A stretch of 62,428 bases of DNA, counting the filler, from a bacterium (GTDB lineage: Bacteria; JALSQH01): the NCBI GenBank assembly GCA_026985515.1. It is 7 parts of 7 records of this genome, joined end to end, with 100 filler letters (N's around TTAATTAATTAA, not from the genome) between each part and the next. Parts side by side here need not be neighbours in the genome. Positions count along the whole stretch, not along the records: positions 13,881 to 28,637 come from JALSQH010000207.1; positions 28,738 to 36,825 come from JALSQH010000208.1; positions 36,926 to 44,833 come from JALSQH010000210.1; positions 44,934 to 52,830 come from JALSQH010000211.1; 3 more parts are not named here. One strand, 5' to 3'. Below, one piece after another: positions 20,839 through 52,830 of the stretch. The position numbers were made by a program, and so were the translations under genes. Under the pieces are notes generated by a model. The model did not search any database. It was not told the origin of the DNA and was given only the letters and a program-made list of their open reading frames with translations. Position 1 is the stretch's first letter. Each line of letters starts with the position of its first letter.

Positions 20839-20896
20839 TGAAAATAGAAGAAGGGGAGGTCGAAATGAAAAATGTTAAATTTCAAAAGCTTATCTC

Positions 20897-20920
20897 CTCA
20901 TTCATTCAGTCAGTCATTCA
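20897..20920 (+). repeat. Imperfect tetranucleotide tract (NTCA)6 in signal-peptide coding region
   Basis: CTCA TTCA TTCA GTCA GTCA TTCA, starting at the last base of codon 11 of the ATG 20865 frame. Confidence 0.8.
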
Positions 20921-21583
20921 TTGATAATTTTATTGTTCTTGATTGTGGGATCAACCTCAGGGAATTCAGCCACATTTGAGTTTTTAAATCAGGTAAGGGG
21001 TATTGATACAGGAAATGGTCTTGTTGGATGTGAAGCTGTTTATATAAGGGGAAAGGATCTGGTTGGAGGTTACAGTTTTGCAGATGCAGTTACCAATCCA
21101 TGGGGTAAAATTTCATCAGAAGGAAGTGTGGTTATACTTGGTAAAAATAGGATAGAAGGTGATATTTATCTCCCCAATCTTTCAGACTATTGGGATTTTG
21201 GCAGAAATAAAGTTGAAGGCGAGTTAAAGAGTGTAGATATAGTTTCCAGTTGCGATGCTATTGAGAAAGTTGAGGATTGGATTTATAAGGCGTCACTTGA
21301 TAATAATAACGATGAATGGAACTTTGGAGAGGATCTTTTTGGATATTTAGAATATGAAAAAGGTCATCACCATAAAAAGGGAAGGTTAAGGTGGGTTAAT
21401 GAGTATAGTATTTCTTCACCTCAGGAAGGGATTTTTTATTTTGATCATTTGAGGATGGGAGGAAAGGTAAATGTCAAGGTAGGTTCATTGTTAACATTGT
21501 TTGTTAAAGGGGATTTTGAGGTTCTGGGTAAGAGTAAGGTGAATTATGGAGGAGATCCGGCGAGTTTAATAGTTGTAGTTGGG

Positions 21584-21691
21584 GGTGATGTAAGGATATG
21601 TGGAAAAAGTAGTTTTTCAGGGACGATTATCAGCAAAGGGGATGTTAGGATATGTGGTAGGAGCCGGTTCAAAGGGAGTATTATAAGTAAG
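21584..21691 (+). repeat. 54-bp tandem coding duplication (GDVRICG..18-aa unit)
   Basis: GDVRICGKSSFSGTIISK / GDVRICGRSRFKGSIISK. Confidence 0.75.
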
Positions 21692-24216
21692 AGACTTTTC
21701 ATTGATGGCCATAATGAGGCATTGTGGGATGTGAATGAGGGGGTGAATTATTTCATTTATTACAATGAGTGGGGGACTGGAGAGACAATAAGGTATTATT
21801 TTGAGTCAGGGAAGTATATGGTGAAGGTTACAGAGGGGAGTTTAGCGAAGGTAGAAGGAAAGTTGTATGAATTGGGGATTACATATGATGTAGATGATGT
21901 GGGATATTTCCTATTTTTTAAATCTAATATGCCTTTAAGTGAACTTAAGCAGGAACTTTTACCAGTAGGAGCAAGTTTTGTAGGTCAGTTTTTTACTAAA
22001 AGTAATGATGATAGAGGATGGATTCCTAATCCGGTTTTGTTAGTAAGATATAAAGACGATGTTACCAAGCAGGAGGTTATAGATTTTAATAAGAGAATAG
22101 GGGTTAAGAGTGTTGAGGTTCTATCCTGGGACACCCTTATCTTTGCATTGACAGTAACTGCTGATAATGTGTATGAGTTAATGGAAAAAAGAAAAGAATA
22201 TGAAGAATCGGATCTTGTGGAGTGGGTGGATATAGATGAAGCAGGAATTGTAGAAGGAAAGTATCATGAGAAAGTTTTAAATAAGGAACTCGATGATAAT
22301 ACTTATTCAGAATATAATTATATGGGCTTAACTGGTTTCTTTACGAGAAATACTCCTGATGTTCTTGATTTTTTAGTGGGCTACAAAAATGAATCCATTG
22401 AATTCCCCATATATGGAGCCAATCGATACAATAGGCCTGTGAGAATTGGGGTAATTGGATATGGAGTTTATGATGCTCATGAGGATCTTAGACACTCTCT
22501 GTGCGGTTTTGGTAAGACATTTGTTGAAGGTGATAAAAATGGGTACATTCCTAATTATATTAGAAATCCCAGTGAAAACGACAATAACCAGCATGAAATC
22601 TGGATTACTGGTTTGATAGCTGCTGATTCATTCAATCATAAGGGCGTATGGGGTCTGACATTTGGTAGTAGCTGTGTCGTGCCAATTCAAGATGTTTATC
22701 GTAGAAAAACTCATTGGTGGGAAGAAGGTGAATATATAAATGTAAGTAAAGTTTCCTGGACGGTGAAAGGCATAAACTATGCTAAGGATGTAGTTGATAT
22801 TCTTAATATATCCTGGAAATATGAGGAGAGCAATGCATTGAGAGACGCAATATTGGATGCAGCCAAGAAGATTTTGATTGTTGCCAGTGCTGGTAATGAA
22901 GATAAGAATAGATGTAATTTCCCCGCCAACTTGGCTGGAAGAAGCAACGGCATATTGTGTGTTGGAGCTGTGTCTGGAGGAAATTAAATATCGTGATGGT
23001 GCGAGTAATTATGGCAAATACTTAAGTTTAGTTGCTCCTGATGGGATAGTAGTACCCACATATTTGGTAGACAATACAGGGAATGCAAGCATATATAAAT
23101 ATTTGATGTTTTGGGGAACCTCTTGTGCTGCTCCATATGTAGCTTCTGTTGCAGCAATTTTGAAATTTTTCGATCCTCAATTGACTCCAGAAATATTAAA
23201 AGAACTTTTAATAAAAACTGCTTCAAATGAGAAAATTAAGAATTATAGCAAATGGGAATATGGTGCAGGTGTTGTTGATATAGGAAAGGCATTCAAAGTA
23301 CTTTTGTTTCAAGAAGAAGACTATTCTTTATATCCTAATGTGATTCTAAGCTTCTCATCTTTTAATTTAAATTTTAACAAAGCAGGTTATGATTATTCCG
23401 AAATGGATGTTCCAAAAGGTAAAATTGGAATAAAGACAGGCTTCTTATCTAATTTCAGAAAGGAAAATTATGACTTAACTTTACCTGCAGAAGTGTATGT
23501 AATTTTAGGTAAAAATAGTACATCCTATAATTGGTTTAAATTTCATATCGGAAGTAATATGCCGAAAAGTGAGAGTGACATATTTTCTAAGGTGCATATG
23601 GTTTTACCAGTGGATGCTTCTGCACGATTTTTATTCCTTTACATAGCTAATTTGGGAGAGCCGGTAGGATTTGAAGATGAAGGGAGGATTGTTATTTTAG
23701 GGAGTTCCTTTTCAGATTCAATAGATACCCATTTTAAGGTTTTACCAAAAAATGCTAATACTCCTCCCAACCAGGGGTGTTCCATAGAATATAATTTTAG
23801 CGAGGCTCCTTTTGGAGAGAACATTATTGATGCTTTTAGAAAGGTGAGAGATTCTTATCTTGCTAAGGTTTCTTATGGATTAGAAGCGATAAACTTATAC
23901 TATGAATGGAGTTCTGAGTTTAATAATATATTAGATAATAATCCAGATTTGAAAGAAGAATTTCATGATATTATTTATGAGATTTTTGGTATTAATAACT
24001 TAACCGTGAAGAATGCGCAAACTCTTGCGAATGAACTCTGGAACTTACGATTGAGCGAGGAGGAGAGGATACGGATACAGAATTTTGTTAGAATGATAAT
24101 TCCTTTTTTATCGTCAAAGCCTCGTACTTTTGCCCTGGTGGCCGAAAAAGTTTTTTCGTTACCTGAAACCAATTCTTTATCTGTCGGTGAAATTATTGAA
24201 GAGATTTTGAGATATT

Positions 24217-26199
24217 ATGAAAAGAGGTAGAATGATGTCATCCAGACGATATTTAAGAAAATTACCAATAATTGCTTTAGTAATGTTAATACTGAGTAAG
24301 GTATCCTGTTGCCCCGATTTTTATAATACCCCTGGATTTTTCCTGTTTCATTATAATGAAGATTTTTATCCCCCGTTTTTCCCTGGTGAGGAAACCCAAG
24401 CAATTTTTTCTGTTGATTATTTTTATACCGTTGATTTTAATAGCAACGGCTGGTCTGACATTGAAGCCAATGAATTGCTTAAAGATAGACCAGATGTTTT
24501 TCAGAATGACCTTGGCTACTTTGAGAATTTGACTTCGGGAAGCATTTATGGTGGATCTGCAGGAGGTTATATCTACATGATAGGTAGAAGTTATTGTCGA
24601 AATAAAGATTATCCAGTCAATCAATGGAAGAATTTTGTTAAGATATTAGGTAATAGTGGTAATTATTTATGGTATCTAAAAGATAGTAAACTTTATATGT
24701 TGGATCTCTCCAAAAGAAAATCTATGTTTTTGTCAAAAGATGTTACGGGTCTGTTGATTAGAGGTAAGTTGAAAAATTTTTATGAGAAAGGTGGTAACTT
24801 ATACGTTGTAATTGTGGATTTCGCAACTTCAGAGGAATTTAAGAATTATTTCTATGAGAAATTGGAAAACTTAGAAAAACATCCCAATAAATTTTTTGTT
24901 AATCAGGATAAAGTCAAATTCGGTCTTAAGGTAATGACAAAGGAAGATATTGTATATAAGTGGCTGACTATGATGGTTGACAAGGGATATTATCCATCAG
25001 AACTTACTGAAAACGGACTTTGGGGGAGGAAACTTGAGTTATATTCTGTAAGTAATACTGGTATGGTTCTTCAATGGAAATATCTTGATAGACCGATGAG
25101 TTTCTTCAGGGATTTTAATATTATGCTTGCAAGTGAGGAAGATAATATGGGGGTGTCTGGCATAGAGGGAGAGCTAACTGATGAAGTTGAGTTGGTAATT
25201 TTGGGTAGCAGATATATCATTTTAGCAGCCAAGTTTTTAACTGGAGATGGTGCTAATTTTGTAAATTATTTTAAGTGGCTGAAGGTTAATGAAGAATGTA
25301 GGAAAATCTTTTCATTGTCATTTAGGTCATTTAAAAGTAAGATTCTTAAAAATAAAGTAAATGTAAAATGTTTTAATTCTGGTTACTATTGTAATGGATC
25401 ATTTTTACATAAGGAAAAACATTATTTTCATAATTGCATAAAATGGGATCGCAAAATAAAGGTGCCAGATTTTTCTTTTTACAAAAATGAATCTGATCTT
25501 ATAGGAATGGAACTTGAAACTAACTCAGATCGGTTGATGGGTGTATATTCCTTTTTTGGTGAAGGTAAAAATGCAATAAAGTTTTTCTCTTTAATATATC
25601 CTGATTGTTTCAGTGTATCTTCCTTAAAGTGGGAGAATCGAATGGTTTATGACAGCTCTTTTTATTCTCTGGATTCTTCTAAGAAAGTTATCAATCTCAT
25701 TCCCTTTTTCTCTGGCAACTCTATCTACTTCCAGTGTGAGCTTTCTTCATCCACAAATCTTGTTGGTGGTCTTTGCAGATATGATATGGACTCAAAGGAG
25801 CTCACCCACCTCCGTTCCGACATCCCTCCCGCAAATACGGTGGATTTTCCTCCCGAAGAAGACTGGGATGATAATAAGCTCTATGTTACGGGTGATGGAA
25901 GATATGCTTTAATTGTGCCCATTCATTTTACCAAGAAGTGTTTAACGAATGATCCAGAAAAGTGTATCTACTGCAACAGGGATATTTCTCCCAATGTGTG
26001 GGATTTTGGGAGTTTTAGTAAGATCTATGCCTACAGCTTAACAGACTCCACCCGACCCCCTGTGGAGATAGATGTAACGGGTTATGATGGTTATCTTGTT
26101 CCTTCCCCTGATCATATGCAGTTTGCCTTCAGCATGGGAGATAAGATTGGAATTCTTGATGGGAAAACTTTAGAGGTGAGGGTGCTGGAGGTCAGGTAA
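24217..26199 (+). CDS. Hypothetical exported protein, possible lipoprotein, with beta-propeller-like C-terminus
   Basis: 660-aa ORF; basic N-terminus + hydrophobic stretch + SCC; C-terminal GDGRY and PSPDHMQFAF propeller-like turns; true start may be 24232/24235. Confidence 0.7.
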   Translation: MKRGRMMSSRRYLRKLPIIALVMLILSKVSCCPDFYNTPGFFLFHYNEDFYPPFFPGEETQAIFSVDYFYTVDFNSNGWSDIEANELLKDRPDVFQNDLGYFENLTSGSIYGGSAGGYIYMIGRSYCRNKDYPVNQWKNFVKILGNSGNYLWYLKDSKLYMLDLSKRKSMFLSKDVTGLLIRGKLKNFYEKGGNLYVVIVDFATSEEFKNYFYEKLENLEKHPNKFFVNQDKVKFGLKVMTKEDIVYKWLTMMVDKGYYPSELTENGLWGRKLELYSVSNTGMVLQWKYLDRPMSFFRDFNIMLASEEDNMGVSGIEGELTDEVELVILGSRYIILAAKFLTGDGANFVNYFKWLKVNEECRKIFSLSFRSFKSKILKNKVNVKCFNSGYYCNGSFLHKEKHYFHNCIKWDRKIKVPDFSFYKNESDLIGMELETNSDRLMGVYSFFGEGKNAIKFFSLIYPDCFSVSSLKWENRMVYDSSFYSLDSSKKVINLIPFFSGNSIYFQCELSSSTNLVGGLCRYDMDSKELTHLRSDIPPANTVDFPPEEDWDDNKLYVTGDGRYALIVPIHFTKKCLTNDPEKCIYCNRDISPNVWDFGSFSKIYAYSLTDSTRPPVEIDVTGYDGYLVPSPDHMQFAFSMGDKIGILDGKTLEVRVLEVR

Positions 26200-26374
26200 A
26201 TCTTATTTTCTTACGCTTCTTTTGCTAACTGATAAATTTAACAGTGTTATGCCTTGAAAAATTTGCTCTCTGGCAATAAATAAGGAGATAGTAGTATTTA
26301 ATTTTCAAAAAGCTTTTCCTGCGTCGTTTTTTATAATTGAATTTTGTATTTTAAAAAGTCCATATGTCCTTCTC

Positions 26375-26478
26375 CCACAATATCTTGTCCCTTCTTCTTG
26401 ACATATACAATTTTTTGTGCTATAAAATATAAACACAAGATATGGTGTTGCTAAAATATAAACCACAATATTTAGAAG
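26375..26478 (+). promoter_or_regulatory. nrdD promoter with NrdR boxes
   Basis: TTGACA(26398)-N17-TATAAA(26421); 16-bp matches to acaCwAtATaTwGtgt at 26375, 26433, 26463 and a weaker one at 26405. Confidence 0.85.
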
Positions 26479-26487
26479 GAGGGGAAA

Positions 26488-28608
26488 ATGGGACATGTCA
26501 GGTACATCAGGAAAAGGGATGGCAAGGTGGTTGAATTCAAAATAACAAAAATTGCAGATGCTATTTTCAAGGCGGCCAGCGCCGTAGGGGGTAATGATTA
26601 CGGTGAATCAATTAGGATTGCAAGACTTGTAAAAGCGGCTGTGGATGCCATTTATGGAGATGAAAGAATTCCAACTGTTGAGGAAATTCAGGATCTCGTT
26701 GAGAAATTCCTCATTGAAGAGGGTCATGCAAAAACTGCCAAGGCTTACATTCTCTACAGGGAGCAGAGAAGCAGAGTAAGGGAATTTTCATCTCTCTTTG
26801 ATGAGGCACTTGATATGATAGATGATTATCTTGAACAGAGAGACTGGCGTGTCAATGAAAACAGTAACATGAGTTATTCGCTTCAGGGACTGAACAATTA
26901 TATTTCTTCCGCTATCACTGCCAGGTACTGGCTTAACAGAATCTACCCCGAGGAGGTGAGGGAGGCTCACAATAAGGGATTTTTTCACATTCATGATCTT
27001 GGTATCTTAAGTGTTTACTGTTGCGGATGGGATCTTGAAGATCTACTTCTCAGAGGACTTGGTGGTGTGGAGGGTAAAGTTGAGAGTGCTCCCCCGAAAC
27101 ATTTCCGAACTGCTCTGGGACAGATAGTCAACTTTTTTTATACACTTCAGGGGGAGGCTGCGGGAGCTCAGGCATTTTCAAATTTCGATACACTTCTTGC
27201 CCCATTCATCAGGTATGATGGTCTCACCTACAGAGAGGTGAAACAGGCAATGCAGGAATTTATTTTTAACCTGAATGTACCTACAAGGGTAGGTTTTCAG
27301 ACTCCCTTTACAAATCTTACCTTTGATATAATTCCGCCAAAATCTCTCAGGGATGAGCATGTTATCATTGGTGGTGAGAGAAAGAAGGAGACCTATGGAG
27401 AATTTCAGGATGAAATCTACATGATTAACGAAGCGTTTGCCGAAGTTATGCTTGAAGGGGATGCCAGGGGGAGGATTTTCACTTTTCCAATACCAACATA
27501 CAATATAACACCTGACTTCCCATGGGATGAACCGAGACTTAACAAGCTGTGGGAAATGACAGCCAAGTATGGAATTCCCTACTTCAGTAATTTTGTAAAT
27601 AGCGACATGGACCCGGATGATGCAAGAAGCATGTGTTGTCGTTTGAGGCTTGATAACAGAGAAATAAGAAAACAGGCCAGAAAGCTCTCAGCAAACATAT
27701 TCAATCCGGTAATGAACAAGACATTTTCAACCTCTGAGAGGAACTCGTCTGAACTTGAGCCACCGGATAAGAGAGGGGGTGGTCTTTTCGGTGCCAATCC
27801 CATGACTGGAAGTATCGGTGTGGTAACGATAAATCTTCCCAGACTGGCATATTTATCTAAAAGCAGGGAAGAATTTTTCAATCTCATAGAAAAATATATG
27901 GAAATTGCCAGAACGTCGCTGGAGATAAAGAGAAAGATTCTCGATCGCTTTACAGAAATGGGACTTTACCCATATTCGAAGGTTTACCTCAGATCTATAA
28001 AGGAGGCCTTTGGTTCATACTGGGCAAATCATTTTTCCACAATTGGTTTAATAGGGATGCATGAAGCTTCACTCAATCTGATAGGTAAGGGAATAGAAAC
28101 CGAAGAGGGTAGAGAACTGGCCATAGAAACCCTTAATTTTATGAGAAAGGTGCTTGATAGATTCAAGGAGGAGACGGGGCATCTCTATAACCTTGAAGCT
28201 ACCCCTGCCGAAGGGGCAAGTTACAGACTTGCAAGGAAAGACAAAGAAGAGTTTCCAGATATCATTACTTCAGGGGAAGCAGAGCCTTTTTACACCAATT
28301 CCACTCAGCTTCCTGTGGATTATACTGAGGACATTTTTGCGGCTCTTGAGCATCAGGATCAGTTACAGGTTATCTATACCGGTGGGACGGTTTTCCATGG
28401 TTTCCTCGGAGAGAGAGTTGAAAGTATAGAGGCCACGAAGCAACTTGTAAGGAAAATTGCAGAAAATTTTCATCTTCCTTACTACACAATAACCCCTACA
28501 TTCAGTATCTGTCCCGTACATGGTTACATTCCTGGAGAGTATGAGTTCTGTCCCTATCCTCATACAGAGGAAGAGCTTGAAAAGTATGGGATCATTATTG
28601 ACGAATAA
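26488..28608 (+). CDS. nrdD: Anaerobic (class III) ribonucleoside-triphosphate reductase, ATP-cone + catalytic domain; lacks glycyl-radical C-terminus
   Basis: ATP cone IRKRDG, DWRVNENSN, HIHDLG, YCCGW, SMCCRL, NLEATPAEG, YTGGTVFH, CPVHG...CP. Confidence 0.95.
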   Translation: MGHVRYIRKRDGKVVEFKITKIADAIFKAASAVGGNDYGESIRIARLVKAAVDAIYGDERIPTVEEIQDLVEKFLIEEGHAKTAKAYILYREQRSRVREFSSLFDEALDMIDDYLEQRDWRVNENSNMSYSLQGLNNYISSAITARYWLNRIYPEEVREAHNKGFFHIHDLGILSVYCCGWDLEDLLLRGLGGVEGKVESAPPKHFRTALGQIVNFFYTLQGEAAGAQAFSNFDTLLAPFIRYDGLTYREVKQAMQEFIFNLNVPTRVGFQTPFTNLTFDIIPPKSLRDEHVIIGGERKKETYGEFQDEIYMINEAFAEVMLEGDARGRIFTFPIPTYNITPDFPWDEPRLNKLWEMTAKYGIPYFSNFVNSDMDPDDARSMCCRLRLDNREIRKQARKLSANIFNPVMNKTFSTSERNSSELEPPDKRGGGLFGANPMTGSIGVVTINLPRLAYLSKSREEFFNLIEKYMEIARTSLEIKRKILDRFTEMGLYPYSKVYLRSIKEAFGSYWANHFSTIGLIGMHEASLNLIGKGIETEEGRELAIETLNFMRKVLDRFKEETGHLYNLEATPAEGASYRLARKDKEEFPDIITSGEAEPFYTNSTQLPVDYTEDIFAALEHQDQLQVIYTGGTVFHGFLGERVESIEATKQLVRKIAENFHLPYYTITPTFSICPVHGYIPGEYEFCPYPHTEEELEKYGIIIDE

Positions 28609-28625
28609 AAAAGGAGGTTTGTACC

Positions 28626-28637
28626 ATGAAAAAGAAG
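28626..28637 (+). CDS. Start of a gene (MKKK...) truncated by linker; candidate separate NrdD glycyl-radical peptide or NrdG
   Basis: AAGGAGG RBS at 28611-28617 followed by ATG, 17 nt after nrdD stop. Confidence 0.45.
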
Positions 28638-28737
28638 NNNNNNNNNNNNNNNNNNNNNNNNNNNNNNNNNNNNNNNNNNNNTTAATTAATTAANNNNNNN
28701 NNNNNNNNNNNNNNNNNNNNNNNNNNNNNNNNNNNNN
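28638..28737. other. Artificial contig linker
   Basis: 44 N + TTAATTAATTAA + 44 N. Confidence 0.98.
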
Positions 28738-28878
28738 AGGGATAATCCATGGTCTGAGGAGGGTTTTTACCCGAAAATAAAGGGGCATTTCCTTGATCCT
28801 CCTGAATGGCACTATTTACCATTTTACAGGGAGCTGCACCTTGAAAAAGTTGATCTTCTCCTTCCTCCTGATAAGTAA
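28738..28878 (+). CDS. 3' fragment of a possible YidD-like protein
   Basis: Open frame RDNPWSEEGFYPKIKGHFLDPP...*, resembling the RxNPW...DP tail of YidD-type proteins. Confidence 0.4.
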   Translation, partial: RDNPWSEEGFYPKIKGHFLDPPEWHYLPFYRELHLEKVDLLLPPDK

Positions 28879-30201: not shown

Positions 30202-30204
30202 TTC

Positions 30205-30232: not shown

Positions 30233-30241
30233 AACTCTGGT

Positions 30242-36825: not shown

Positions 36826-36925
36826 NNNNNNNNNNNNNNNNNNNNNNNNNNNNNNNNNNNNNNNNNNNNTTAATTAATTAANNNNNNNNNNNNNNNNNNN
36901 NNNNNNNNNNNNNNNNNNNNNNNNN
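36826..36925. other. Artificial contig linker
   Basis: 44 N + TTAATTAATTAA + 44 N. Confidence 0.98.
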
Positions 36926-41168: not shown

Positions 41169-41215
41169 AAAAATCGGGCACTTTATGGTAATATTTCCCT
41201 GAAAAGGAGGGTACG

Positions 41216-44833: not shown

Positions 44834-44933
44834 NNNNNNNNNNNNNNNNNNNNNNNNNNNNNNNNNNNNNNNNNNNNTTAATTAATTAANNNNNNNNNNN
44901 NNNNNNNNNNNNNNNNNNNNNNNNNNNNNNNNN
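44834..44933. other. Artificial contig linker
   Basis: 44 N + TTAATTAATTAA + 44 N. Confidence 0.98.
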
Positions 44934-46119
44934 GGGGGTTAAGCAGGAGAGTAATCTCCTTACCCTGGCAAGAGCTATTGAAGACAGGGATGCAGAAATT
45001 GTTGGAGCTGAAATTATCCCTGACAATTCTGAGGCAATAGAGACTTCTCTTAAAAGGGCAGTTTCATCAAATGTGGATTATATTGTTGTTTCTGGTGGTC
45101 TTGGCCCCACCGATGATGATATTACGAGGGAAAGTGTTGCTCATCTTCTGGGTACGAAGCTTATCCTGGATAATACCTGCTGGGAAGAGATAGTTGAGAA
45201 GTTTAAAAAAAGGGGGTTGCCGGTAGCTGAGAGAAACAAAAAGCAGGCAATGATTCCTGAGGGAATGAAAGCTGTGAGGAATCCCGCTGGAACTGCCTGC
45301 GGTTTTTATGGGGAAGTTAATGGGAAAATCCTCATCGTTTTACCCGGGGTTCCTGTTGAATTTAAAGAGATGCTGTTTACCCTCGTTGAGTCACTTCTTC
45401 CTTTAAAGAGAAGTGAAAATCTTCTTGTGCTGAGGCTCTTTGGTATAAGTGAATCTGGACTCAACGAACTTCTTGAAAAAACAATTTTGAAAATTTATCC
45501 AGATTTGAAATTAACATTTCTCCCTGATTATCCTGAAATAGAATTGAGAATAAGATTCACAACTGTTGAAGAAGATGAATTGAAGGAAGAATTGAGAAGA
45601 GTGGTGGGTAACTATGTGTATTCATGGAAGGGGGAGATTCTTCCTGTAGTTTTTGGTAAAGAGTTGAAATGGAGGGGTTTATTTTTTGCTGTGGCGGAGT
45701 CGTGCACTGGAGGGCTTGTTGCAAAAAGCATAACCGATATTCCTGGAAGTTCAGAGTACTTTGACAGGGGATTTGTGACTTATTCCAATCAGGCCAAGAT
45801 GGATCATCTTGGAGTAAGGGAGGAAACTCTCAGAAAGTTCGGGGCGGTAAGTGAGGAAACGGCGAGAGAGATGGTTCTGGGTGTCCTTGAACACAGCAGG
45901 GCTGATATTGCAGCATCAATCACGGGGATCGCTGGACCCACAGGTGGAACACCTGAAAAGCCTGTGGGGACAGTATATACTGCCATTGCAGACAGAGAAG
46001 GGAGAATAGAGGTCGTGAGAAACTTTTTCCCGGGTAACCGGGAGCAGGTGAGAAAGGCAACAATGACAAAGGTCCTCTTTGGAGTGGTAAAATGGCTCGA
46101 AAGGTTTTACCCGCTGTAA
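44934..46119 (+). CDS. cinA: CinA / NMN deamidase (MoCF-like domain + PncC), 5' truncated
   Basis: SGGLGPTDDDITRE, NPAGTA, LPGVP.E, AESCTGG, TYSNQAK, TGIAGP.GG. Confidence 0.93.
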
Positions 46120-46676
46120 GAAATTTTGTTGCAATACCTGTGGAGGGTGAACTGGGGGAGCTGTTAATAGAGAAAGTTGCGGAATGGAGAAGGATCCAGC
46201 CAGATTTAAAGTGGGAGAAAAGGGGGAATTTCCATATCACACTGAAGTTCATTGGAGATTCTACAGAAAGAGAACTGGTAAAAATTGAAGAAATTATATC
46301 TGAGGTTTTTTCAGATATTCACAGGTTTTCAGTTCCCGTTGGATCTGTTGGAGCTTTCCCTGATTTTAAAAGGGCAAGGGTTGTGTGGGTTGGGGCGCTT
46401 TTCCCCGATAGTTTTGTGGAAAGAGTGGAAAAGTTTGACAGGCTTCTTTACGAATACCTTGGAATTCCAAGGGAGAAAAAGGAGTTTACCCCCCACATCA
46501 CCATTGCAAGGGTAAAACGCTCTTCTATTAAACGGGAACTTCTTGATGGATTCAGGGAGTTCAATGAATTTGTAAATGGGAAAGAACTGAGTGTTGATAA
46601 AGTTGTGCATTTCAAAAGTGAACTGAAACCCTCTGGCGCAGTTCACACTCCTCTCTTTACCCTGGACCTCAGGTAA
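46092..46676 (+). CDS. thpR: RNA 2',3'-cyclic phosphodiesterase (2H phosphoesterase)
   Basis: Two HxT motifs: HITLKF and PHITIAR; cinA-thpR synteny. Confidence 0.93.
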   Translation: MARKVLPAVRNFVAIPVEGELGELLIEKVAEWRRIQPDLKWEKRGNFHITLKFIGDSTERELVKIEEIISEVFSDIHRFSVPVGSVGAFPDFKRARVVWVGALFPDSFVERVEKFDRLLYEYLGIPREKKEFTPHITIARVKRSSIKRELLDGFREFNEFVNGKELSVDKVVHFKSELKPSGAVHTPLFTLDLR

Positions 46677-46713
46677 TTTGAATCTTTTGCTCAGGATAAT
46701 CTATACTCAAAAG

Positions 46714-46896
46714 AAGAGAGGCGATAGCTCCAGCCCTGACCCTTCATTTGATTCTTTTTAATGTATTTTGGCGATGAAAATCACATGCAAGTTGGAGGGT
46801 CTTTCCACATCTCTGCTACTTAGAAAGATGATGAAGGGGGTTGGGTATTGGAGATGCTGTTTCAAAAAAATTGAGGTTGGGTACCAACCTCAAATT
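46714..46896 (+). ncRNA. Candidate structured non-coding RNA (long rod hairpin plus 3' hairpin)
   Basis: TTGAAT(46678)-N18-TATACT(46702) upstream; arms 46726-46776 and 46808-46858 pair extensively with G-U pairs on the + strand. Confidence 0.4.
46871..46893. terminator. Perfect hairpin, intrinsic terminator-like
   Basis: TTGAGGTTGG-GTA-CCAACCTCAA; A7 run on the left makes a U-tract on the minus strand. Confidence 0.6.
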
Positions 46897-46937
46897 GAAT
46901 TGTCAACTGTTTCAAAAAGTATATACTTTAAGTAGTT

Positions 46938-47282
46938 ATGTTTGGGAAGTTCTTTTTGAAAGTCAGATCAGGCGGGAAAGTTCATTTTGATTATGTTATA
47001 GCCTACAGGCAGGCAATAGGTATTGTTGATCTCAAGGCACTTGACAGATTTATGAAAACGAATGATGTGGATAAACTCCTTTTAATTGCCGAGAACCCCC
47101 TTACTCAGGGTACCATCAATTATCTGAATGATCTTTCATGGAAAGAAAAGGTTGAAGTTGTCGTTACGGATAGGCTTTTGAAGACCGTTTCGGAGCTTAA
47201 GAAGAAGTACAGGGAGAAAGAGATTAAAGTCATAAACCTTGATGAGTTTGGAGAAAGACCCTTTCAGTACGACAGTTGTTAG
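46938..47282 (+). CDS. Hypothetical protein
   Basis: 114-aa ORF with host-like codon usage filling the space before cstA. Confidence 0.55.
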   Translation: MFGKFFLKVRSGGKVHFDYVIAYRQAIGIVDLKALDRFMKTNDVDKLLLIAENPLTQGTINYLNDLSWKEKVEVVVTDRLLKTVSELKKKYREKEIKVINLDEFGERPFQYDSC

Positions 47283-47296
47283 ATGGAGGTTAAAAA

Positions 47297-48985
47297 ATGA
47301 ATGGACTTTTGTGGGCCATCATTATGCTTGCGTGGCTCTGGGGTGGGTATTTCATTTATGGAAAGATAATTGAGAAAAAATTGATTCAGCCTGATGACAG
47401 CAGATCCACACCTGCGGTGGAGTACAATGACGGAGTTGACTATTCCCCTGCAAAGACCCCAATACTTTTTGGTCACCATTTCTCCTCAATTGCGGGTGCG
47501 GGACCCATTGTTGGACCCATTATAGCGGTGCTTTACTTTGGATGGCTTGCAGCCAGCCTCTGGGTTGCTCTGGGGGCAGTTTTTATGGGAGCCGTCCATG
47601 ATTATACAGCACTTATGGTTTCCGTGAGAAATAAGGGAAGTTCCCTTGCAGATGTGGCAGAGACCGCCGTAAGTCACAGAGCAAAGGTTATATTTGCCAT
47701 ATTTATCTGGATAACCCTTGTTCTTGTGGTGGCTGTTTTTGGCGTAGTTACAGCAAAAACCTTCATAGGTCAGCCCCAGATTGTTGTTCCCACCTTTGCC
47801 CTTATTTTAATTGCCATTTTCTTTGGCTGGCTTGTTTACAGGATGGGAGTGCCCATATGGATAGGCACAGTTGCGGCACTGATTCTGGTTGCAATTTTCC
47901 TTTATGCTGGTGATATTTACCCCATCTCTCTTCCCAGAAATGCCACCCTTGGTTTTCTTGCTTCTTCCCCTTCAATGATATGGTTTGTTATACTCATGAT
48001 TTACGCCCTTTTTGCTTCCGTTCTTCCTGTGTGGTTACTCCTCCAGCCGAGGGATTACCTCAGCATGTGGCTTCTTTTCCTCGGAATGGGGCTTGGTTAC
48101 ATTGGATTGATCTTTGCTCATCCCACAATTAACGCACCAGCCTTCACCTCCTTTACTTCAAAGGGTGGTCCTCTCTGGCCCATGCTCTTTGTGATCATAG
48201 CGTGTGGTGCAATTTCCGGGTTTCATTCTCTTGTGGCAGGGGGTACAACCTCAAAGCAGCTGGAGAAGGAGAGTTCAGGTAAGATTATTGGTTATGGTGC
48301 AATGATAATGGAAGCCACTCTGGCAACTCTCGTTATTGTTATAGGTGCTGCCGCCCTTAAGTGGGATCCCTCAGGAAAGTTACACCTGGGTTACCAGTTT
48401 CTTATGAATAAAAGTGCCGGTGGGGGACCCATCAAAGCCTTTGCTGTTGGTTTCGGACAGCTTGTTAAGGAGATTCCAGGACTGAACAGTAAAATCGGGA
48501 TTTATGTCGGAATGCTGATGCTCAATGGCTTTGTGATAACAACGCTGGATACTGCTACAAGACTTGCAAGGTTTGTGCTTCAGGAGCTTACCAGAGACAC
48601 AATTCCTTTCATTGCAAACAGATGGATCGCCACAATTGTAACCATCGCTTTTGCCTGGTACTTTGGTGCTACGGGCAGCTGGAAAACAATATGGCCTGTC
48701 TTTGGTGCTTCCAACCAGTTAGTTGCTGCTCTGGCTCTTACTGTTGTAAGTGCATATTTCCTTGGAGTGAAAAAACCTCTCAAGTACACAGTTATACCTG
48801 CCATTCTCATGCTTGTAACAACAATGGGTGCACTGCTCTACCAGGCTTACAAATTCATTTTCGTTGTTCCCAAACTGCAGATTGCAATAACTGCCTTGAT
48901 ACTCTTTGCCCTTGCACTTTTTATCTTCCTTGAGGCAAAGGATGTTTTTATAGCTCTCTTCAGGACTCAGAAGCAGACTTCCTGA
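47297..48985 (+). CDS. cstA: Carbon starvation protein A family transporter
   Basis: DGVDY, FGHHFSSIAGAGPIVGP, LPVWLLLQPRDY, IACGAISGFH, TTLDTATR, FGASNQL. Confidence 0.95.
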   Translation: MNGLLWAIIMLAWLWGGYFIYGKIIEKKLIQPDDSRSTPAVEYNDGVDYSPAKTPILFGHHFSSIAGAGPIVGPIIAVLYFGWLAASLWVALGAVFMGAVHDYTALMVSVRNKGSSLADVAETAVSHRAKVIFAIFIWITLVLVVAVFGVVTAKTFIGQPQIVVPTFALILIAIFFGWLVYRMGVPIWIGTVAALILVAIFLYAGDIYPISLPRNATLGFLASSPSMIWFVILMIYALFASVLPVWLLLQPRDYLSMWLLFLGMGLGYIGLIFAHPTINAPAFTSFTSKGGPLWPMLFVIIACGAISGFHSLVAGGTTSKQLEKESSGKIIGYGAMIMEATLATLVIVIGAAALKWDPSGKLHLGYQFLMNKSAGGGPIKAFAVGFGQLVKEIPGLNSKIGIYVGMLMLNGFVITTLDTATRLARFVLQELTRDTIPFIANRWIATIVTIAFAWYFGATGSWKTIWPVFGASNQLVAALALTVVSAYFLGVKKPLKYTVIPAILMLVTTMGALLYQAYKFIFVVPKLQIAITALILFALALFIFLEAKDVFIALFRTQKQTS

Positions 48986-49424
48986 TCTCCATGAGGATTT
49001 TTAGCATATTCTTCTGATGAGTGCCTCTCCAGTAAATTTTCCCGCAGGAGGGGCACATTTTGAATTCTTTATGCTTTTTTGAAATGTACGATGGAACTTT
49101 TCCTCTGACCTCTTCAGGGGATATCTGTTTAAGCTCCACATTGCAGTTGAGGCATCTTGTAAAAGCATTTTCAAGAGGGTCAATCTTGAATTTTTTTACC
49201 ACCTCCACTGCCTGATTGAAGGGGATGTCATCCACAACAACGAAGAACTCGTGTGTTCCGGTGGGAAAGTTTCTCCTCCGGGTGAGAATAATTCTTTTTT
49301 CTTTCTCTGCAATCTGGATAAGCTCTTCAGGTACAGATGTGTTAACATATTTACAATCCACTCCCATGCTGCGGAGAAGTCTGCATAACTTACCAAGGTT
49401 TCTGTCTGCAAGAAAGGAGATCAC
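48960..49424 (-). CDS. Mut7-C RNase domain (PIN-like) protein
   Basis: FLADRNLGKL.R.LR..G, RIILTR, RCLNCN, CPSCGKIYWRGTH. Confidence 0.9.
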   Translation of the reverse strand: MISFLADRNLGKLCRLLRSMGVDCKYVNTSVPEELIQIAEKEKRIILTRRRNFPTGTHEFFVVVDDIPFNQAVEVVKKFKIDPLENAFTRCLNCNVELKQISPEEVRGKVPSYISKKHKEFKMCPSCGKIYWRGTHQKNMLKILMEIRKSASES

Positions 49425-49453
49425 ACTTTATTTTACCACTATTGCCAGAAGAG

Positions 49454-50050
49454 TTAAGTTTCTTCTTCCCACGCAATTGTAAGTTCAATGTAAGGTGTTT
49501 TGTCCTCCCACTCCCCTAGTCTTACAGATTTCAGTCTGATATTTTTGCAACCTTTCATTTCGAGAAGAGAAGATATACCTCCAATTGTCATATGTTGTAA
49601 CACCAGTCTGAGCCCGGGAATCTGATACAGGTAGGGTAAGCCAAGCCTGAAGGTACCCTCATTCTTACCACCTTTCACAAATTCTGCTCTTCCATTTTCA
49701 AAGATTTCTGGAACAATTTTTTCCGGGGCATATTTGAGTACATCAATTGGCGTTTTGAAAAGAATATTAAGATTTCTCACAAGTTCTCTTTTGATTATTA
49801 GTTTTGCTTCTTCTCTTCCAACTTCCTGAATAAATTTTCCAAGTCCATTTCCGTAACGATTTTCAGCAAGATTAAGAAGGCTGGTGAGACGAGAGAGAGG
49901 ATATTTAACATTCTCGAGCACCTCTTTTTTGAGTAGATCCTTCAGTTCTTCTGGCAGGGTTTCAAGAAATTTTTCATAGTCCTTTTTCCCATAAAGGGTA
50001 AGAATAGCGTTTCTCACAGCATAAAAATTTGATGCATGAACATTTACCAT
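49454..50050 (-). CDS. Hypothetical protein; paralog of 38672..39256
   Basis: AAAGGAGG RBS before ATG 50050; EVGR, TP.DV.KY.P, C-terminal GEWEDKTPYIELTIAWE. Confidence 0.6.
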   Translation of the reverse strand: MVNVHASNFYAVRNAILTLYGKKDYEKFLETLPEELKDLLKKEVLENVKYPLSRLTSLLNLAENRYGNGLGKFIQEVGREEAKLIIKRELVRNLNILFKTPIDVLKYAPEKIVPEIFENGRAEFVKGGKNEGTFRLGLPYLYQIPGLRLVLQHMTIGGISSLLEMKGCKNIRLKSVRLGEWEDKTPYIELTIAWEEET

Positions 50051-50145
50051 TGTATCACCTCCTTTGTTCATTATATGGGTTTGGTGAAAAAATCAAAACA
50101 ATGTTTTAATTTGACCATTTAAAGGATTTGAGGTAATATTTCATT

Positions 50146-51492
50146 GTGAGAAGACTGAGTTTAGCAGCCGTATTTTTATCCTTCTTTTTCTTATTCTCCT
50201 GTGGACCCCGGAAGAGTGAAAATTATCCGCCGGAAACTCTGCCAGAAATAAACTATTATTATCCGAATCTGGTTACAAATTACGGTATTGCAGGTTTTGG
50301 AAGGTCAAGTATTGATTTTCAGTTCAGGAAAATGGCAGAGGCGGGTCTCCAGATCGTGAGAAGGGAAATAACCTGGAGCGATGTTGAAAGAGAAAGGGGC
50401 AATTTTGATTTTTCATGGTATGATCAGATTGTGGACCTTGCCAGATCTTATGGATTGAGATATCTGGGTATACTTGCTTATGGAAACAGGTGGGCCTCAG
50501 AAGAGGGAAGTCAGATTGGAGGTCATGAGGGTGATTTTTATCCTCCCGATGATCTTGAAGATTTTGCAAATTATGTGTACACCACTGTTCAGCATTACCG
50601 CGGAAGGATAAAAATGTGGGAGGTGTGGAATGAACCAAATGGAGGTTACAGGTTCTGGAAGAGCAGTCTTGTGGGTGACCCGAAGGGTTACGCGGAACTG
50701 TTAAAAGTGGCCTACACTTCTGTGAAAAAGGCATGTCCGGAATGTATTGTTTCATATGCCGGGCTTTTCTATCATCAGGAAGCGATTATGGGAGCAGTTA
50801 CATTTTTAGAAAAAAGTTTTGAGGCTGCCCCTGACCTCGGTGATTACTTTGATGTTATGGCGTATCATCCATATCCATTTTACCCTCCCCTTGCCGCTCC
50901 CGAAAGTGACCAGTTTATAGAGGTTCCAATTTACACGATGAATGAAAATATTCTCTCGGTGCTGAAGATGAACGGTGTTAATAAGCCATTGTGGATAACT
51001 GAAATTGGCTGGCCCACAATCTATTCTCTCACAGAAGAGATGCAGGCTGAGTACCTGGTGAGGAGTTTTGCCCTCGCCTATGCAACAGGCGCCAGCATGT
51101 ATCTCTACTTCACATTCTGGGATTCCGATATCAGTCGAGCAATTGTACCCCCCGAGGCGGAGTTTGGATTATACAACTATCCCTATTCCACCACAGATTA
51201 TGAGTCTCTTGCCAAGAAAGGCTGGTTTGCATACACAGAGGTGGTGAAAATTCTCGGGGGAAAATGGTTTTCGGGAATCTGTAAAGATGTGAAGCTTGAT
51301 CCCCTCACCCAGTTTGCACTTAAATTTACATCTGCGACGGAGAGGGTCTGTGTTGTATGGAGTAAGGGGGGAAGGGAAAAACTTAAAATTGCCAATCGTC
51401 CTGATTTAATACTGGATATTTATGGTAGAAGTGTTACGCTCCCGGAGATAAGCGAATCTCCACTCTATCTCATATGGAAGGAGAATCGTTGA
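50146..51492 (+). CDS. Lipoprotein glycoside hydrolase, clan GH-A (GH5/GH39-like)
   Basis: Lipobox LFSC, WEVWNEPN acid/base, HPY, LWITEIGW nucleophile. Confidence 0.85.
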   Translation: MRRLSLAAVFLSFFFLFSCGPRKSENYPPETLPEINYYYPNLVTNYGIAGFGRSSIDFQFRKMAEAGLQIVRREITWSDVERERGNFDFSWYDQIVDLARSYGLRYLGILAYGNRWASEEGSQIGGHEGDFYPPDDLEDFANYVYTTVQHYRGRIKMWEVWNEPNGGYRFWKSSLVGDPKGYAELLKVAYTSVKKACPECIVSYAGLFYHQEAIMGAVTFLEKSFEAAPDLGDYFDVMAYHPYPFYPPLAAPESDQFIEVPIYTMNENILSVLKMNGVNKPLWITEIGWPTIYSLTEEMQAEYLVRSFALAYATGASMYLYFTFWDSDISRAIVPPEAEFGLYNYPYSTTDYESLAKKGWFAYTEVVKILGGKWFSGICKDVKLDPLTQFALKFTSATERVCVVWSKGGREKLKIANRPDLILDIYGRSVTLPEISESPLYLIWKENR

Positions 51493-51522
51493 AATTTCGA
51501 TCTTTCCAGATATGATAAAAAC

Positions 51523-52497
51523 ATGGTTGCAGTTATTCTGCTCAACTGGAATAACAGCAGAGATACTCTGGAATGCCTGAGATCTCTTATCTCTGACAGG
51601 TTTCCTCATAAGAGAATCATTGTTGTTGATAATGATTCATCAGCCAGAGATTATGAAAATCTTATTGCTGGAATAAGGGGGATGGGAAACAGTTTTAGGG
51701 AAATAAGGGAAGAAGAGATTGAGGAAGTTGATCCATCCACTCTGGATGATTTTCTTATTGTTGTGAAAAACAGGGAAAACTACGGATTTGCCGGCGGTAA
51801 CAACAGGGGTATAAAACTTGCCCTGAAATTTAGAGATGTAAAATATTTATGGCTGTTGAACAACGATACAGTGGTGAAGGATGACACTCTCCTGAATCTT
51901 GTAAAGAGAATTGAAAAAGATAACAGAACTGGATTCGTTGGGTCAGTACTTCTTTATTTCTCATATCCTGATAAAATTCAGGCAGTTGGGGGCGGAAAGT
52001 TTTACCCGTGGTTTGGAAGTGCAAGGTTGATCATGAAGGGAAAAAGTGTGCGGGGGAGGAAGTTCAGGGAGTTGAGAGAAGAGGAGGTTTTGAAAAGAAT
52101 AAACTACATTATGGGTGCCTCACTTATGGTGAGAAGAGAGGTTATTGAGCAGGCTGGTCTGCTTGATGAGGTTTTTTTTCTATATGGAGAAGAGGTTGAC
52201 TGGCAGTTAAGAGGGAGGAAGAAAGGCTGGAAAACAGGAGTTTCTCTGGATAGTTATGTGTATCATAAAGTCAGTGGCACTGTAAAAAGCAGGAGTTCCC
52301 TCTACAGATTTCACATGATGAGAAGCAGTACAATTGTGATTCTGAGGCATTATAGTTTTCTCTATCTCGGTTCCGCCCTTATATTTCAACTACTTTATTC
52401 TCTTGCAAAAATGGAGGGCATTTCCGGAATAAAGGATATTTTGAAGGGGTTTGGATCAGGATTAAGGGAATATTTTAAGAATCGAGCCACTTTGTGA
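51523..52497 (+). CDS. Glycosyltransferase family 2
   Basis: ILLNWN, VVDNDS, NYGFAGGNN, LLNND, FFLYGEEVD. Confidence 0.92.
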   Translation: MVAVILLNWNNSRDTLECLRSLISDRFPHKRIIVVDNDSSARDYENLIAGIRGMGNSFREIREEEIEEVDPSTLDDFLIVVKNRENYGFAGGNNRGIKLALKFRDVKYLWLLNNDTVVKDDTLLNLVKRIEKDNRTGFVGSVLLYFSYPDKIQAVGGGKFYPWFGSARLIMKGKSVRGRKFRELREEEVLKRINYIMGASLMVRREVIEQAGLLDEVFFLYGEEVDWQLRGRKKGWKTGVSLDSYVYHKVSGTVKSRSSLYRFHMMRSSTIVILRHYSFLYLGSALIFQLLYSLAKMEGISGIKDILKGFGSGLREYFKNRATL

Positions 52498-52705
52498 AAT
52501 AACACTTGATTGAGGATCCCGGCATAAAATCAGAAAAAACCTTAGAGGAAAAATCCACGGGGTCCAAAGATTTATGGATGAGATACCGGTTTGAGAAGGG
52601 TATGGGGAGTTGGTGATAAGGAGGGTGGATAACCCCAACTACTTGACTTTTCCTAAAAATTGTAGTATCAAGAAATTGTGAAATGATTTAAATGGGAGGG
52701 TTGAT

Positions 52706-52830
52706 ATGAAAAACTTTAAATTTCAATTAGTTAACTCTCTTCCTTCCTTCCTTCCTTCCTTCCTTCCTTTTAGCACTTTTTCTTCTATTTAACCCGCTTT
52801 TAAATTGGGACCTGCATGCAGGTAAGAAGT
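52706..52830 (+). CDS. 5' end of a secreted-protein gene frameshifted in its signal peptide by a (CTTC)7 tract; rest lost in linker
   Basis: GGGAGG RBS, ATG 52706 MKNFKFQLVNS; current frame stops at 52790; the +1 frame reads LALFLLFNPLLNWDLHA-GKK. Confidence 0.65.
52739..52769 (+). repeat. Perfect simple sequence repeat (CTTC)7 + CTT
   Basis: Read directly; starts at codon 12 of the ATG 52706 frame. Confidence 0.95.

What the first reader, a model, noticed from the sequence alone, without database searches (positions are those of the whole stretch)
20865..52830. Candidate phase-variation system: unlinked secreted-protein genes share an MKNxKFQxxxS leader followed by a tetranucleotide slippage tract
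Seen: ATG 20865 encodes MKNVKFQKLIS and ATG 52706 encodes MKNFKFQLVNS (ATGAAAAAYKTTAAATTTCAA), each behind a strong GGAGG RBS in AT-rich DNA. In both, a 4-nt repeat begins at the codon 11/12 boundary: (NTCA)6 in one, (CTTC)7 in the other. In both, the hydrophobic core and Ala cleavage site of a signal peptide lie just downstream but out of frame, and a change of one unit restores the frame. Known: tetranucleotide slipped-strand contingency loci are described mainly in host-adapted pathogens such as Haemophilus and Neisseria. Inference: this is a reusable leader-plus-repeat ON/OFF cassette for exported proteins in an apparently environmental anaerobe. The repeat unit differs while position and period are kept, which suggests selection for switchability. 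Gene callers miss both true starts.
Basis: partly seen in the sequence, partly recalled or inferred. Interest (0 to 1): 0.85.

Follow-up and report, generated by a model that had tools for sequence, protein, structure and literature searches.

The report
Repeat on/off switches in secretion leaders
Secreted-protein genes of an uncultured hydrothermal-vent bacterium start with the same 11-codon leader followed by a four-base repeat that currently puts them out of frame, which is the kind of mutational on/off switch known from pathogens such as Neisseria and Haemophilus.

Summary
Two starts (20865, 52706) share 25 of 33 leader bases and a GGAGG ribosome-binding site. A 4-nt tract begins at base 34 after the ATG at both sites. 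These are the only two 4-nt arrays in the window. In both, the hydrophobic core and cleavage site of the signal peptide lie in another frame with no usable start. One unit gained (site 1) or lost (site 2) restores the frame.

New support:
- A third copy, L128, has a contig-name prefix and composition matching the window. It carries the site-2 cassette with (CTTC)4 instead of (CTTC)7, while the flanking coding bases are identical.
- A public protein, P0006, reads from a homologous leader through two LPSF periods into the same signal peptide in one frame, an ON form.

Limits:
- All three DNA copies are OFF.
- The read tool skipped the tract, so switching within a population is untested.
- The site-1 tract is interrupted. 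Its gene, a subtilase-like protein, has a second frameshift and lacks the catalytic Asp, so it may be decaying.

Verdict: a probable slipped-strand contingency family, and a new member of a known kind. This scan noted similar leader-repeat switches earlier in other uncultured bacteria.

The parts
20855..20859 (+). GGAGG ribosome-binding site of site 1, 5 nt before the ATG
20865..20897 (+). 11-codon leader MKNVKFQKLIS (the n-region of the signal peptide); 25 of 33 bases identical to the site-2 leader
20898..20922 (+). Interrupted 4-nt tract (TCAT)2(TCAG)2(TCAT)2+T; free of stops in all three frames of this strand
20922..20927 (+). TGA-TAA stops that end the leader frame in the present (OFF) state
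20921..20971 (+). Hydrophobic core and ...SGNSA cleavage region of the signal peptide, in frame 2. The only start-like codons are TTG 20921 and GTG 20945, and neither has an RBS
20972..22987 (+). Mature part of gene 1, first ORF: DUF7305 (residues 103-265) and the first two thirds of a Peptidase_S8 domain (residues 507-685)
22975..22990 (+). Second frame break (+1) inside the S8 domain. It is not at a repeat
22878..24230 (+). Second ORF of gene 1: the rest of the S8 domain (profile 191-288, with the GTSCAAP serine motif) and a C-terminal extension
24217..26199 (+). Downstream gene overlapping the end of gene 1 by 14 nt. It encodes 660 aa with its own signal-peptide-like N-terminus and no family hit, and is probably co-transcribed
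52636..52705 (+). Upstream part of the cassette shared with L128 (9 mismatches). It starts at a TTGACT box and includes GGAGG at 52695-52699
52706..52738 (+). 11-codon leader MKNFKFQLVNS
52739..52769 (+). Perfect (CTTC)7+CTT tract. It codes only L, P, S and F in every frame of this strand
52790..52792 (+). TAA that ends the leader frame in the present (OFF) state
52770..52820 (+). Hydrophobic core and ...WDLHA cleavage region in frame 1. There is no start codon in this frame after the TAG at 52728-52730
52821..52830 (+). First codons of the mature protein (GKK), cut by the contig end. L128 continues it for 65 more codons

Best explanation
These are slipped-strand (simple-sequence-repeat) contingency loci.

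Architecture: a lineage-specific 5' module consists of an RBS, an 11-codon leader that supplies the start and the charged n-region of a signal peptide, and then a 4-nt repeat tract starting at base 34. This module sits in front of the hydrophobic core, the cleavage site and the mature part of several exported proteins.

Mechanism: gain or loss of 4-nt units during replication moves the leader in or out of frame with the rest of the gene. In frame, the tract is translated as a short L/P/S/F or S/F/I/H/V/Q stretch. That stretch only lengthens the signal peptide and is removed with it, so tract length is free to vary. Out of frame, translation stops within 0 to 9 codons after the tract.

What is shown:
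- the architecture;
- the frame arithmetic;
- a length difference between near-identical copies;
- an in-frame homologue.

What is inferred:
- that changes are frequent and reversible in living populations;
- that this is selected for.

The CTTC loci (site 2, L128) look like working switches. Site 1 looks like an old member whose tract has been interrupted and whose gene is starting to decay.
For: 1. Shared architecture beyond chance. The only two matches of the leader pattern are followed, at the same offset of 33, by the only two period-4 arrays among the 12 arrays in the window. No simulated sequence had a perfect array of 5 or more units (0 of 300).

2. In both genes the signal-peptide core and cleavage site are in a frame with no RBS-served start. 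One unit more (site 1) or one unit less (site 2) joins it to the leader.

3. Both tracts are free of stops in all three frames, and stops follow quickly in the wrong frames.

4. Length difference:
- L128 has the same cassette from -70 on. Its leader and the 61 nt after the tract are identical to the window, but the tract is (CTTC)4, not 7.
- L128 has a different upstream context, with an IS481-family transposase gene.
- Its GC is 0.395 and its tetranucleotide correlation with the window is 0.94, against 0.68-0.80 for 14 control loci.
- Its k-mer depth in the source run is like that of the window contigs: 8.2 against 7.66 and 8.63.
L128 is therefore probably a second locus of the same genome.

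5. ON form. P0006 is one of 4 hits at E <= 0.001 among 1.84 billion representatives. It matches the window's frame-0 leader product at 16 of 20 residues and the frame-1 product at 21 of 29 within one open frame. It has exactly two LPSF periods between them. Two periods are what six CTTC units would give, and six is the ON number predicted for site 2.

6. P0007, a relative of the mature part (19 of 38 identical), also starts with an 11-residue leader with Q at position 7. A single PSSFL stretch stands where the tract lies. Homologues therefore start at the leader.

7. The two adjacent TCAG units inside the TCAT run at site 1 are what a point change followed by duplication of a unit would leave. 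This is an inference.

8. A further contig in the source run joins a third upstream context to the RBS plus leader (36 nt, 5 mismatches).
Against: - All three DNA copies seen (site 1, site 2, L128) are OFF.
- The 7-versus-4 difference is 12 nt, so it does not change the frame.
- No read-level data on tract length exist. One search had only contigs, and the tool left 52727-52830 out as a repeat.
- The site-1 tract has at most 2 identical units in a row, which should slip rarely.
- Gene 1 has a second, non-repeat frameshift near 22975-22990. Its S8 domain has Gly where two solved subtilases have the catalytic Asp. Both fit decay.
- The DNA of P0006 was not seen, so its LPSF periods could be coded without a CTTC tract.
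- The family is tiny in the databases.
- L128 could be a strain variant rather than a paralogue.
- No + strand promoter passed the scan's criteria at either site.
Confidence: 0.6

Rival explanations
1. These are ordinary pseudogenes. The genes were knocked out by one-off indels in low-complexity leader DNA and are decaying. The tracts are mutational debris, not an evolved reversible switch.
For: All 3 of 3 DNA copies are out of frame. Gene 1 has a second frameshift that is not at a repeat, and Gly stands at the catalytic Asp position in alignments to 2 solved subtilases. The site-1 tract is interrupted.
Against: Two different repeat units start at exactly the same offset behind homologous leaders. 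A perfect 7-unit array is never produced by chance (0 of 300). Near-identical copies differ only in unit number. An in-frame homologue keeps two periods of the tract-coded peptide. Apart from the two breaks, 1,138 codons of gene 1 are open.
Confidence: 0.22
2. Assembly or consensus artefact. The tract lengths, and hence the frames, are mis-assembled at about 8x depth near a contig end. The real genes are in frame.
For: Depth is low, about 7.7-8.6 k-mer depth in the source run. Site 2 lies 61 nt from a contig end. Gene 1 shows another single-base frame break.
Against: The tracts are 25 and 31 nt, far shorter than a read. Two independent contigs, L193 and L128, assemble clean tracts of 7 and 4 units with identical flanks. 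The other large ORFs examined in the window gave full-length family matches.
Confidence: 0.06
3. Programmed ribosomal frameshifting. The ribosome slips on the repetitive tract, so the genes are expressed as they stand.
For: Repetitive, slippery-looking codons lie right where the frame must change. A GGAGG also stands just before the second break in gene 1.
Against: The shift needed is -1 (or +2) at site 1 but +1 at site 2 and L128. There is no common slippery motif. P0006 achieves the join in one ordinary frame. No Rfam element was found at either site.
Confidence: 0.04
4. The short leader ORFs of 19, 24 and 28 codons are the real products, either small hydrophobic peptides or regulatory upstream ORFs. 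The downstream ORFs start independently.
For: Each short ORF has a strong RBS and an early stop.
Against: The downstream frames have no RBS-served start before or within the signal-peptide core. At site 2 and L128 there is no ATG, GTG or TTG in the frame-1 stretch read; the first listed in L128 is a TTG at 3301. Both homologues encode leader and core as one protein.
Confidence: 0.04

Closest known systems
Neisseria opa genes, with (CTCTT)n coding repeats in the signal-peptide region (recalled from my own knowledge; Opa phase variation is mentioned in passages of PMC11868660)
   Same: A multi-copy family with a conserved 5' end. A non-triplet, all-pyrimidine repeat lies inside the signal-peptide coding part. 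The repeat is translated into hydrophobic residues when in frame, and unit number sets ON or OFF at the level of translation.
   Different: The unit here is 4 nt, not 5. The mature proteins are unrelated to Opa: there is no Pfam hit for the site-2 product, and gene 1 is a subtilase-like protein. The organism is an uncultured vent bacterium, not a host-restricted pathogen. No switching has been measured here.
Haemophilus influenzae tetranucleotide contingency loci, such as lic and hgp (PMC2651432 seen as search listing and abstract only; locus names recalled)
   Same: Tetranucleotide units near the 5' end of the reading frame act as translational switches, with several loci per genome.
   Different: There is no sequence relationship. 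Here the tract sits at a fixed position behind a shared 11-codon leader, and the unit sequence differs between loci. The tracts are shorter (4-7 units) than I recall for typical Haemophilus tracts.
Helicobacter pylori outer-membrane protein genes with CT dinucleotide repeats in the signal sequence, such as sabA, oipA and hopZ (recalled; not checked in a paper here)
   Same: A pyrimidine repeat in the signal-sequence coding region acts as a frame switch for exported proteins.
   Different: The unit is a dinucleotide, the leader is different, and the organism is host-adapted.
Leader-repeat switches noted earlier by this scan in other uncultured bacteria (e1-1429427, (TCAC)8 before a secreted glycosidase-like gene; e1-1199483, (CAGA)7 in a pilin leader)
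   Same: The same layout is found in environmental, uncultured lineages: a strong RBS plus ATG, a tetranucleotide tract a few codons in, and a frameshifted exported-protein gene.
   Different: They come from other genomes, with other units and other leaders. They are unchecked AI notes, not independent evidence.

Membership tests
Simple-sequence-repeat translational phase-variation (contingency) locus | A tandem repeat of non-triplet unit inside the 5' part of the reading frame | tested here: met
   Period-4 arrays at 20898-20922 and 52739-52769, each starting at codon 12
Simple-sequence-repeat translational phase-variation (contingency) locus | A change of unit number joins or separates the start codon and the body of the gene | tested here: met
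   Frame arithmetic. The in-frame homologue P0006 bridges both window frames
Simple-sequence-repeat translational phase-variation (contingency) locus | An uninterrupted tract long enough to slip often | tested here: inconclusive
   Site 2 has 7 perfect units and L128 has 4. Site 1 has at most 2 identical units in a row. The thresholds for this organism are unknown
Simple-sequence-repeat translational phase-variation (contingency) locus | Tract-length polymorphism among cells, strains or copies | tested here: inconclusive
   7 against 4 units between two copies with identical coding flanks. No population data, because contigs only were laid and the repeat was skipped
Simple-sequence-repeat translational phase-variation (contingency) locus | High-frequency, reversible switching of expression | not testable with these tools
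   Needs cultures, reporters or deep reads
Neisseria Opa family | An Opa-type outer-membrane protein with a CTCTT pentamer repeat | tested here: not met
   No Pfam family for P0005, P0006 or P0007, even at E up to 5 apart from one chance-level row. The unit is 4 nt. It works like opa but is not a member
Peptidase S8 (subtilase), for gene 1 | The S8 domain is present | tested here: met
   PF00082 scores above its cut-off in both ORFs, covering profile 4-180 and 191-288. 41 solved subtilase sequences match
Peptidase S8 (subtilase), for gene 1 | A complete Asp-His-Ser catalytic triad in one frame | tested here: not met
   Gly aligns with the catalytic Asp of 2 solved proteases. The first His of the HGTH motif, which I recall as the catalytic one, is kept, and the GTSCAAP serine motif is present. 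The domain is split by a frameshift
Programmed ribosomal frameshift site | A conserved slippery site with the same direction of shift in all family members | tested here: not met
   -1 is needed at site 1, but +1 at site 2 and L128

The most novel reading that the evidence does not exclude
A free-living, deep-branching hydrothermal-vent bacterium keeps a portable 5' module (promoter region, RBS, 11-codon leader, tetranucleotide tract at base 34). The module has been placed in front of unrelated exported proteins at four or more loci. The repeat unit is replaced over time (TCAT/TCAG against CTTC) while position and period are kept. This would make a multi-gene 'phasome', used against phages, predators or fluctuating vent chemistry rather than against a host immune system.
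Probability: 0.35. Interest if true: 0.6.

Novelty: new member of a known kind. Interest (0 to 1): 0.45.

Why it matters
Repeat-driven on/off switching of surface and secreted proteins has been studied almost only in host-adapted pathogens. A family of such switches in an uncultured vent anaerobe would show that the strategy also serves free-living bacteria, most plausibly against phages or changing surroundings.

It also has a practical side. Gene callers start these genes inside or after the signal peptide, as in P0004, or miss them altogether. Exported proteins are then mis-annotated as cytoplasmic or truncated, and assemblies break at the shared cassette.

Tried and rejected
- Own genome: none is held, so no genome-wide count of cassettes or repeats was possible.
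- Reads: 3 runs were found, all kept as contigs. When they were laid, the tool left 52727-52830 out as a repeat, so nothing can be said about tract length. Runs X2 and X3 (shares 0.31 and 0.26) have no cover beyond 52570. Only one stretch could be laid, so site 1 and the second frameshift were not checked against reads.
No close genome was identified, so the genome search could not be aimed.
My script examined all 119. Apart from the window's own two contigs (L094, L193), only L128 has a 4-nt tract. The other 116 are unrelated gene starts or AT-rich DNA, so the 21-nt leader alone is not diagnostic.
- Protein searches:
  - The N-terminal 330 residues of gene 1 hit only itself (1 of 3,244 candidates).
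  - P0005 against longer proteins gave nothing (0 of 126).
  - P0006 hit only itself (1 of 391).
  - P0006 and P0007 are each the sole member of their cluster.
  - Of the 4 representative hits, P0008 (a 9-fold tandem-repeat protein) and P0009 (4,179 aa, no aligned stretch) look spurious and were dropped.
- Family libraries: nothing in Pfam or NCBIfam for P0005, P0006, P0007 or gene 3.
- Atlas: no usable hit for P0005. For gene 1 there were only sub-threshold leads to a fervidolysin-type pro-domain.
- Promoter scans: no + strand sigma-70-like site at either locus by the tool's criteria. The TTGACT box at 52637 is only my reading.
- Rfam: nothing at either site.
- Literature: three searches listed no paper on repeat-driven phase variation in hydrothermal-vent or comparable uncultured bacteria among the rows shown. 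This is not proof that none exists, and supplements were closed.
- Not run: structure prediction and complex prediction, since no claim here rests on them.


Full report
**What the window is**

The 62,428 bases are seven contigs joined by N44-TTAATTAATTAA-N44 linkers. Site 1 lies in the second contig (13881-28637). That contig is identical to locus L094. Site 2 lies 125 nt before the end of the fifth contig (44934-52830), which is identical to locus L193. No whole genome is held.

The best-holding public run, which may be the source, is labelled a hydrothermal vent metagenome. The window encodes an anaerobic ribonucleotide reductase. GC is 0.41. No close relative could therefore be named.

- ATG 20865 gives MKNVKFQKLIS and ATG 52706 gives MKNFKFQLVNS.
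- The 21-nt pattern occurs exactly twice, against none expected. Over the full 33-nt leader, 25 bases agree (alignment A1).
- GGAGG stands 5 nt (site 1) and 6 nt (site 2) before the ATG.
- Of the 12 tandem arrays that Tandem Repeats Finder lists in the window, only two have period 4. Both begin at offset 33 from these two ATGs: 20898-20922 (6.2 copies, 90% matches) and 52739-52769 (7.8 copies, 100%).
- In 300 Markov simulations, no perfect 4-nt array of 5 or more units appeared.

At site 1 the leader frame ends in TGA-TAA right after the tract. The core and cleavage region (...IILLFLIVGSTSGNSA) and a 688-codon ORF are in frame 2. At site 2 the leader frame ends after 28 codons. The core (...LLALFLLFNPLLNWDLHA) is in frame 1, where no start codon follows the last stop. 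One more unit (or two fewer) at site 1 joins the frames. One fewer (or two more) does so at site 2. Both tracts are free of stops in all three frames.

The site-1 tract is (TCAT)2(TCAG)2(TCAT)2, so it is interrupted. 'Unlinked' means only 'on different contigs'.

**What the genes are**

Gene 1 encodes a DUF7305 domain followed by a Peptidase_S8 domain. The S8 domain is split. Profile positions 4-180 lie in ORF 20921-22987 and positions 191-288 in ORF 22878-24230. A second break (+1) therefore lies at about 22975-22990, and it is not at any repeat.

In alignments to two solved subtilases, Gly stands where the catalytic Asp should be. The first His of the HGTH motif, which I recall as the catalytic one, is kept, and the GTSCAAP serine motif is present.

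A 660-codon gene with its own signal-like N-terminus overlaps the end of gene 1 and has no family hit.

The site-2 gene is cut after three mature codons. Its continuation in L128 has no Pfam, NCBIfam or Atlas match.

**More members and a length difference**

My script looked at all of them. 116 are unrelated starts without a repeat, two are the window's own contigs, and one, L128, is new.

L128 matches the window only from 70 nt before the ATG to the end of the window's contig. The upstream part has 9 mismatches. The leader and the 61 nt after the tract are identical. The tract is (CTTC)4 instead of (CTTC)7.

Further upstream L128 is unrelated to the window. It holds an IS481-family transposase gene flanked by a 20-nt inverted repeat, and a protein-disulfide-oxidoreductase/thioredoxin gene.

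Several features point to a second locus of the same or a very close genome:
- The L128 contig name has the same prefix as the window's contigs.
- Its GC is 0.395.
- Its tetranucleotide usage correlates 0.94 with the window, against 0.68-0.80 for 14 control loci.
- Its depth in the source run is 8.2, against 7.66 and 8.63 for the window's pieces.

The identical sequence after the tract also explains why the window's contig stops there: two assembly paths merge (inference).

In the source run, a third small contig joins yet another upstream context to the RBS and leader (36 nt, 5 mismatches). Its loose end matches nothing I hold.

**An ON form**

An exhaustive profile search with the L128 product gave 4 hits at E <= 0.001 among 1.84 billion representatives. 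Two are relevant.

P0006 (130 aa, a single-member cluster on an NCBI contig of 4,533 nt) begins MKHYKFQLLNP, continues with LPSFLPSF, and then runs into LLTIFLIFSLLFSWDLHAEKKFH.... It matches the window's frame-0 leader product at 16 of 20 residues. It matches the frame-1 core at 21 of 29 residues. Both matches lie in one open frame.

Two LPSF periods correspond to six CTTC units, which is exactly an ON number for site 2. I could not see its DNA, so this last step is inference. Beyond about 25 mature residues, P0006 diverges from the L128 product. The cassette therefore heads different mature proteins.

P0007 (111 aa) is related to the mature part (19 of 38 identical). It also starts with an 11-residue leader with Q at position 7, followed by a single PSSFL stretch where the tract lies. 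This is a version without the repeat. Neither homologue starts downstream of the tract.

**Mechanism**

The best reading is classical slipped-strand mispairing. Unit gain or loss at the tract couples or uncouples the RBS-served leader and the rest of the signal peptide. The tract-coded residues (L, P, S, F, or S, F, I, H, V, Q) sit between the charged n-region and the core and leave with the cleaved peptide, so length can drift without touching the mature protein.

- Shown: the layout, the frame logic, a unit-number difference between copies with identical flanks, and one in-frame relative.
- Inferred: frequency, reversibility and benefit.

The paired TCAG units inside the TCAT run look like a point change that was later duplicated by slippage. 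That suggests past activity at a tract that is now poor at slipping. Together with the second frameshift and the missing Asp, this makes gene 1 a likely locked-off, decaying member.

**Against this reading**

- All three DNA copies are OFF.
- 7 against 4 units is frame-neutral.
- No population-level data could be had. The laid runs are contigs and the tool skipped 52727-52830. The two runs from another study do not cover the site.
- The family is very small in public data.
- No + strand promoter met the scan's criteria.

**Rivals**

- Plain pseudogenes: this fits gene 1 best.
- Assembly error: unlikely, because the tracts are far shorter than reads and two contigs agree on the flanks.
- Ribosomal frameshifting: opposite directions would be needed at the two sites.
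- Independent leader peptides: the downstream frames have no start.

**Comparison with what is known**

The layout works like Neisseria opa, where a pyrimidine coding repeat in the leader peptide is shared by a gene family. It also works like the tetranucleotide loci of Haemophilus influenzae and the CT repeats in Helicobacter outer-membrane protein genes. These three are recalled from my own knowledge.

- Opa phase variation and the H. influenzae genome appear in passages I read of PMC11868660.
- Enrichment of repeats near N-termini, chiefly in some pathogens, is stated in the abstract and passages of PMC3315296.
- PMC2651432 was seen only as a listing with its abstract.

The locus is not a member of the Opa family.

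Three literature searches showed no paper on such switches in vent or similar uncultured bacteria among the rows listed. Supplements were closed.

This scan's own notes describe similar leader-tract switches in other uncultured bacteria (e1-1429427, e1-1199483). These are unchecked leads, but they show the theme recurs.

**Verdict**

This is a real, non-random feature. It is most likely a small family of repeat-driven on/off switches for exported proteins in an uncultured vent bacterium. That makes it a new member of a known kind, with switching itself still to be shown. Interest is moderate.

Noticed in passing
window 13781-13880, 28638-28737, 36826-36925, 44834-44933, 52831-52930, 60755-60854: Six N44-TTAATTAATTAA-N44 linkers. 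The window is seven concatenated contigs, so order, orientation and distance between its parts carry no meaning.
   Followed up: yes
window 22975-22990: A second (+1) frame break splits the Peptidase_S8 domain of gene 1 between two ORFs. No repeat lies there, and a GGAGG stands just upstream of the stop. It could not be checked against reads.
   Followed up: partly
window about 22430-22450 (residues VIGYGV of ORF 20921-22987): Gly aligns with the catalytic Asp of two solved subtilases, while the His and Ser motifs are kept. The domain may be catalytically dead.
   Followed up: partly
L128:1711-3094: An IS481-family transposase gene (386 aa), with a 20-nt inverted repeat at 1748-1767 and 3056-3075, ends about 20 nt before the shared cassette. 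An insertion sequence may have helped move or copy the cassette.
   Followed up: partly
L128:245-1330 (- strand): A 361-aa fusion of a protein disulfide oxidoreductase (TIGR02187, 192 bits, above its cut-off) with a thioredoxin domain.
   Followed up: no
window 56647-57191: A cluster of six tRNA genes (Pro, Arg, His, Arg, Lys, Leu) lies directly upstream of the trigger factor gene and the ORFs I took for clpP (not scanned against any family) and clpX.
   Followed up: no
P0007 residues 1-18: A distant relative has an 11-residue leader and a single PSSFL stretch at the place of the tract. This hints that the repeat arose by expansion of a native signal-peptide segment, or has collapsed back to one unit.
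   Followed up: partly
run X1, record 7, aligned to window 52691-52726: A 153-nt contig joins a further, unknown upstream sequence to the RBS and leader with 5 mismatches. It is probably a fourth cassette-bearing locus. Its part after the leader was masked by the tool.
   Followed up: partly
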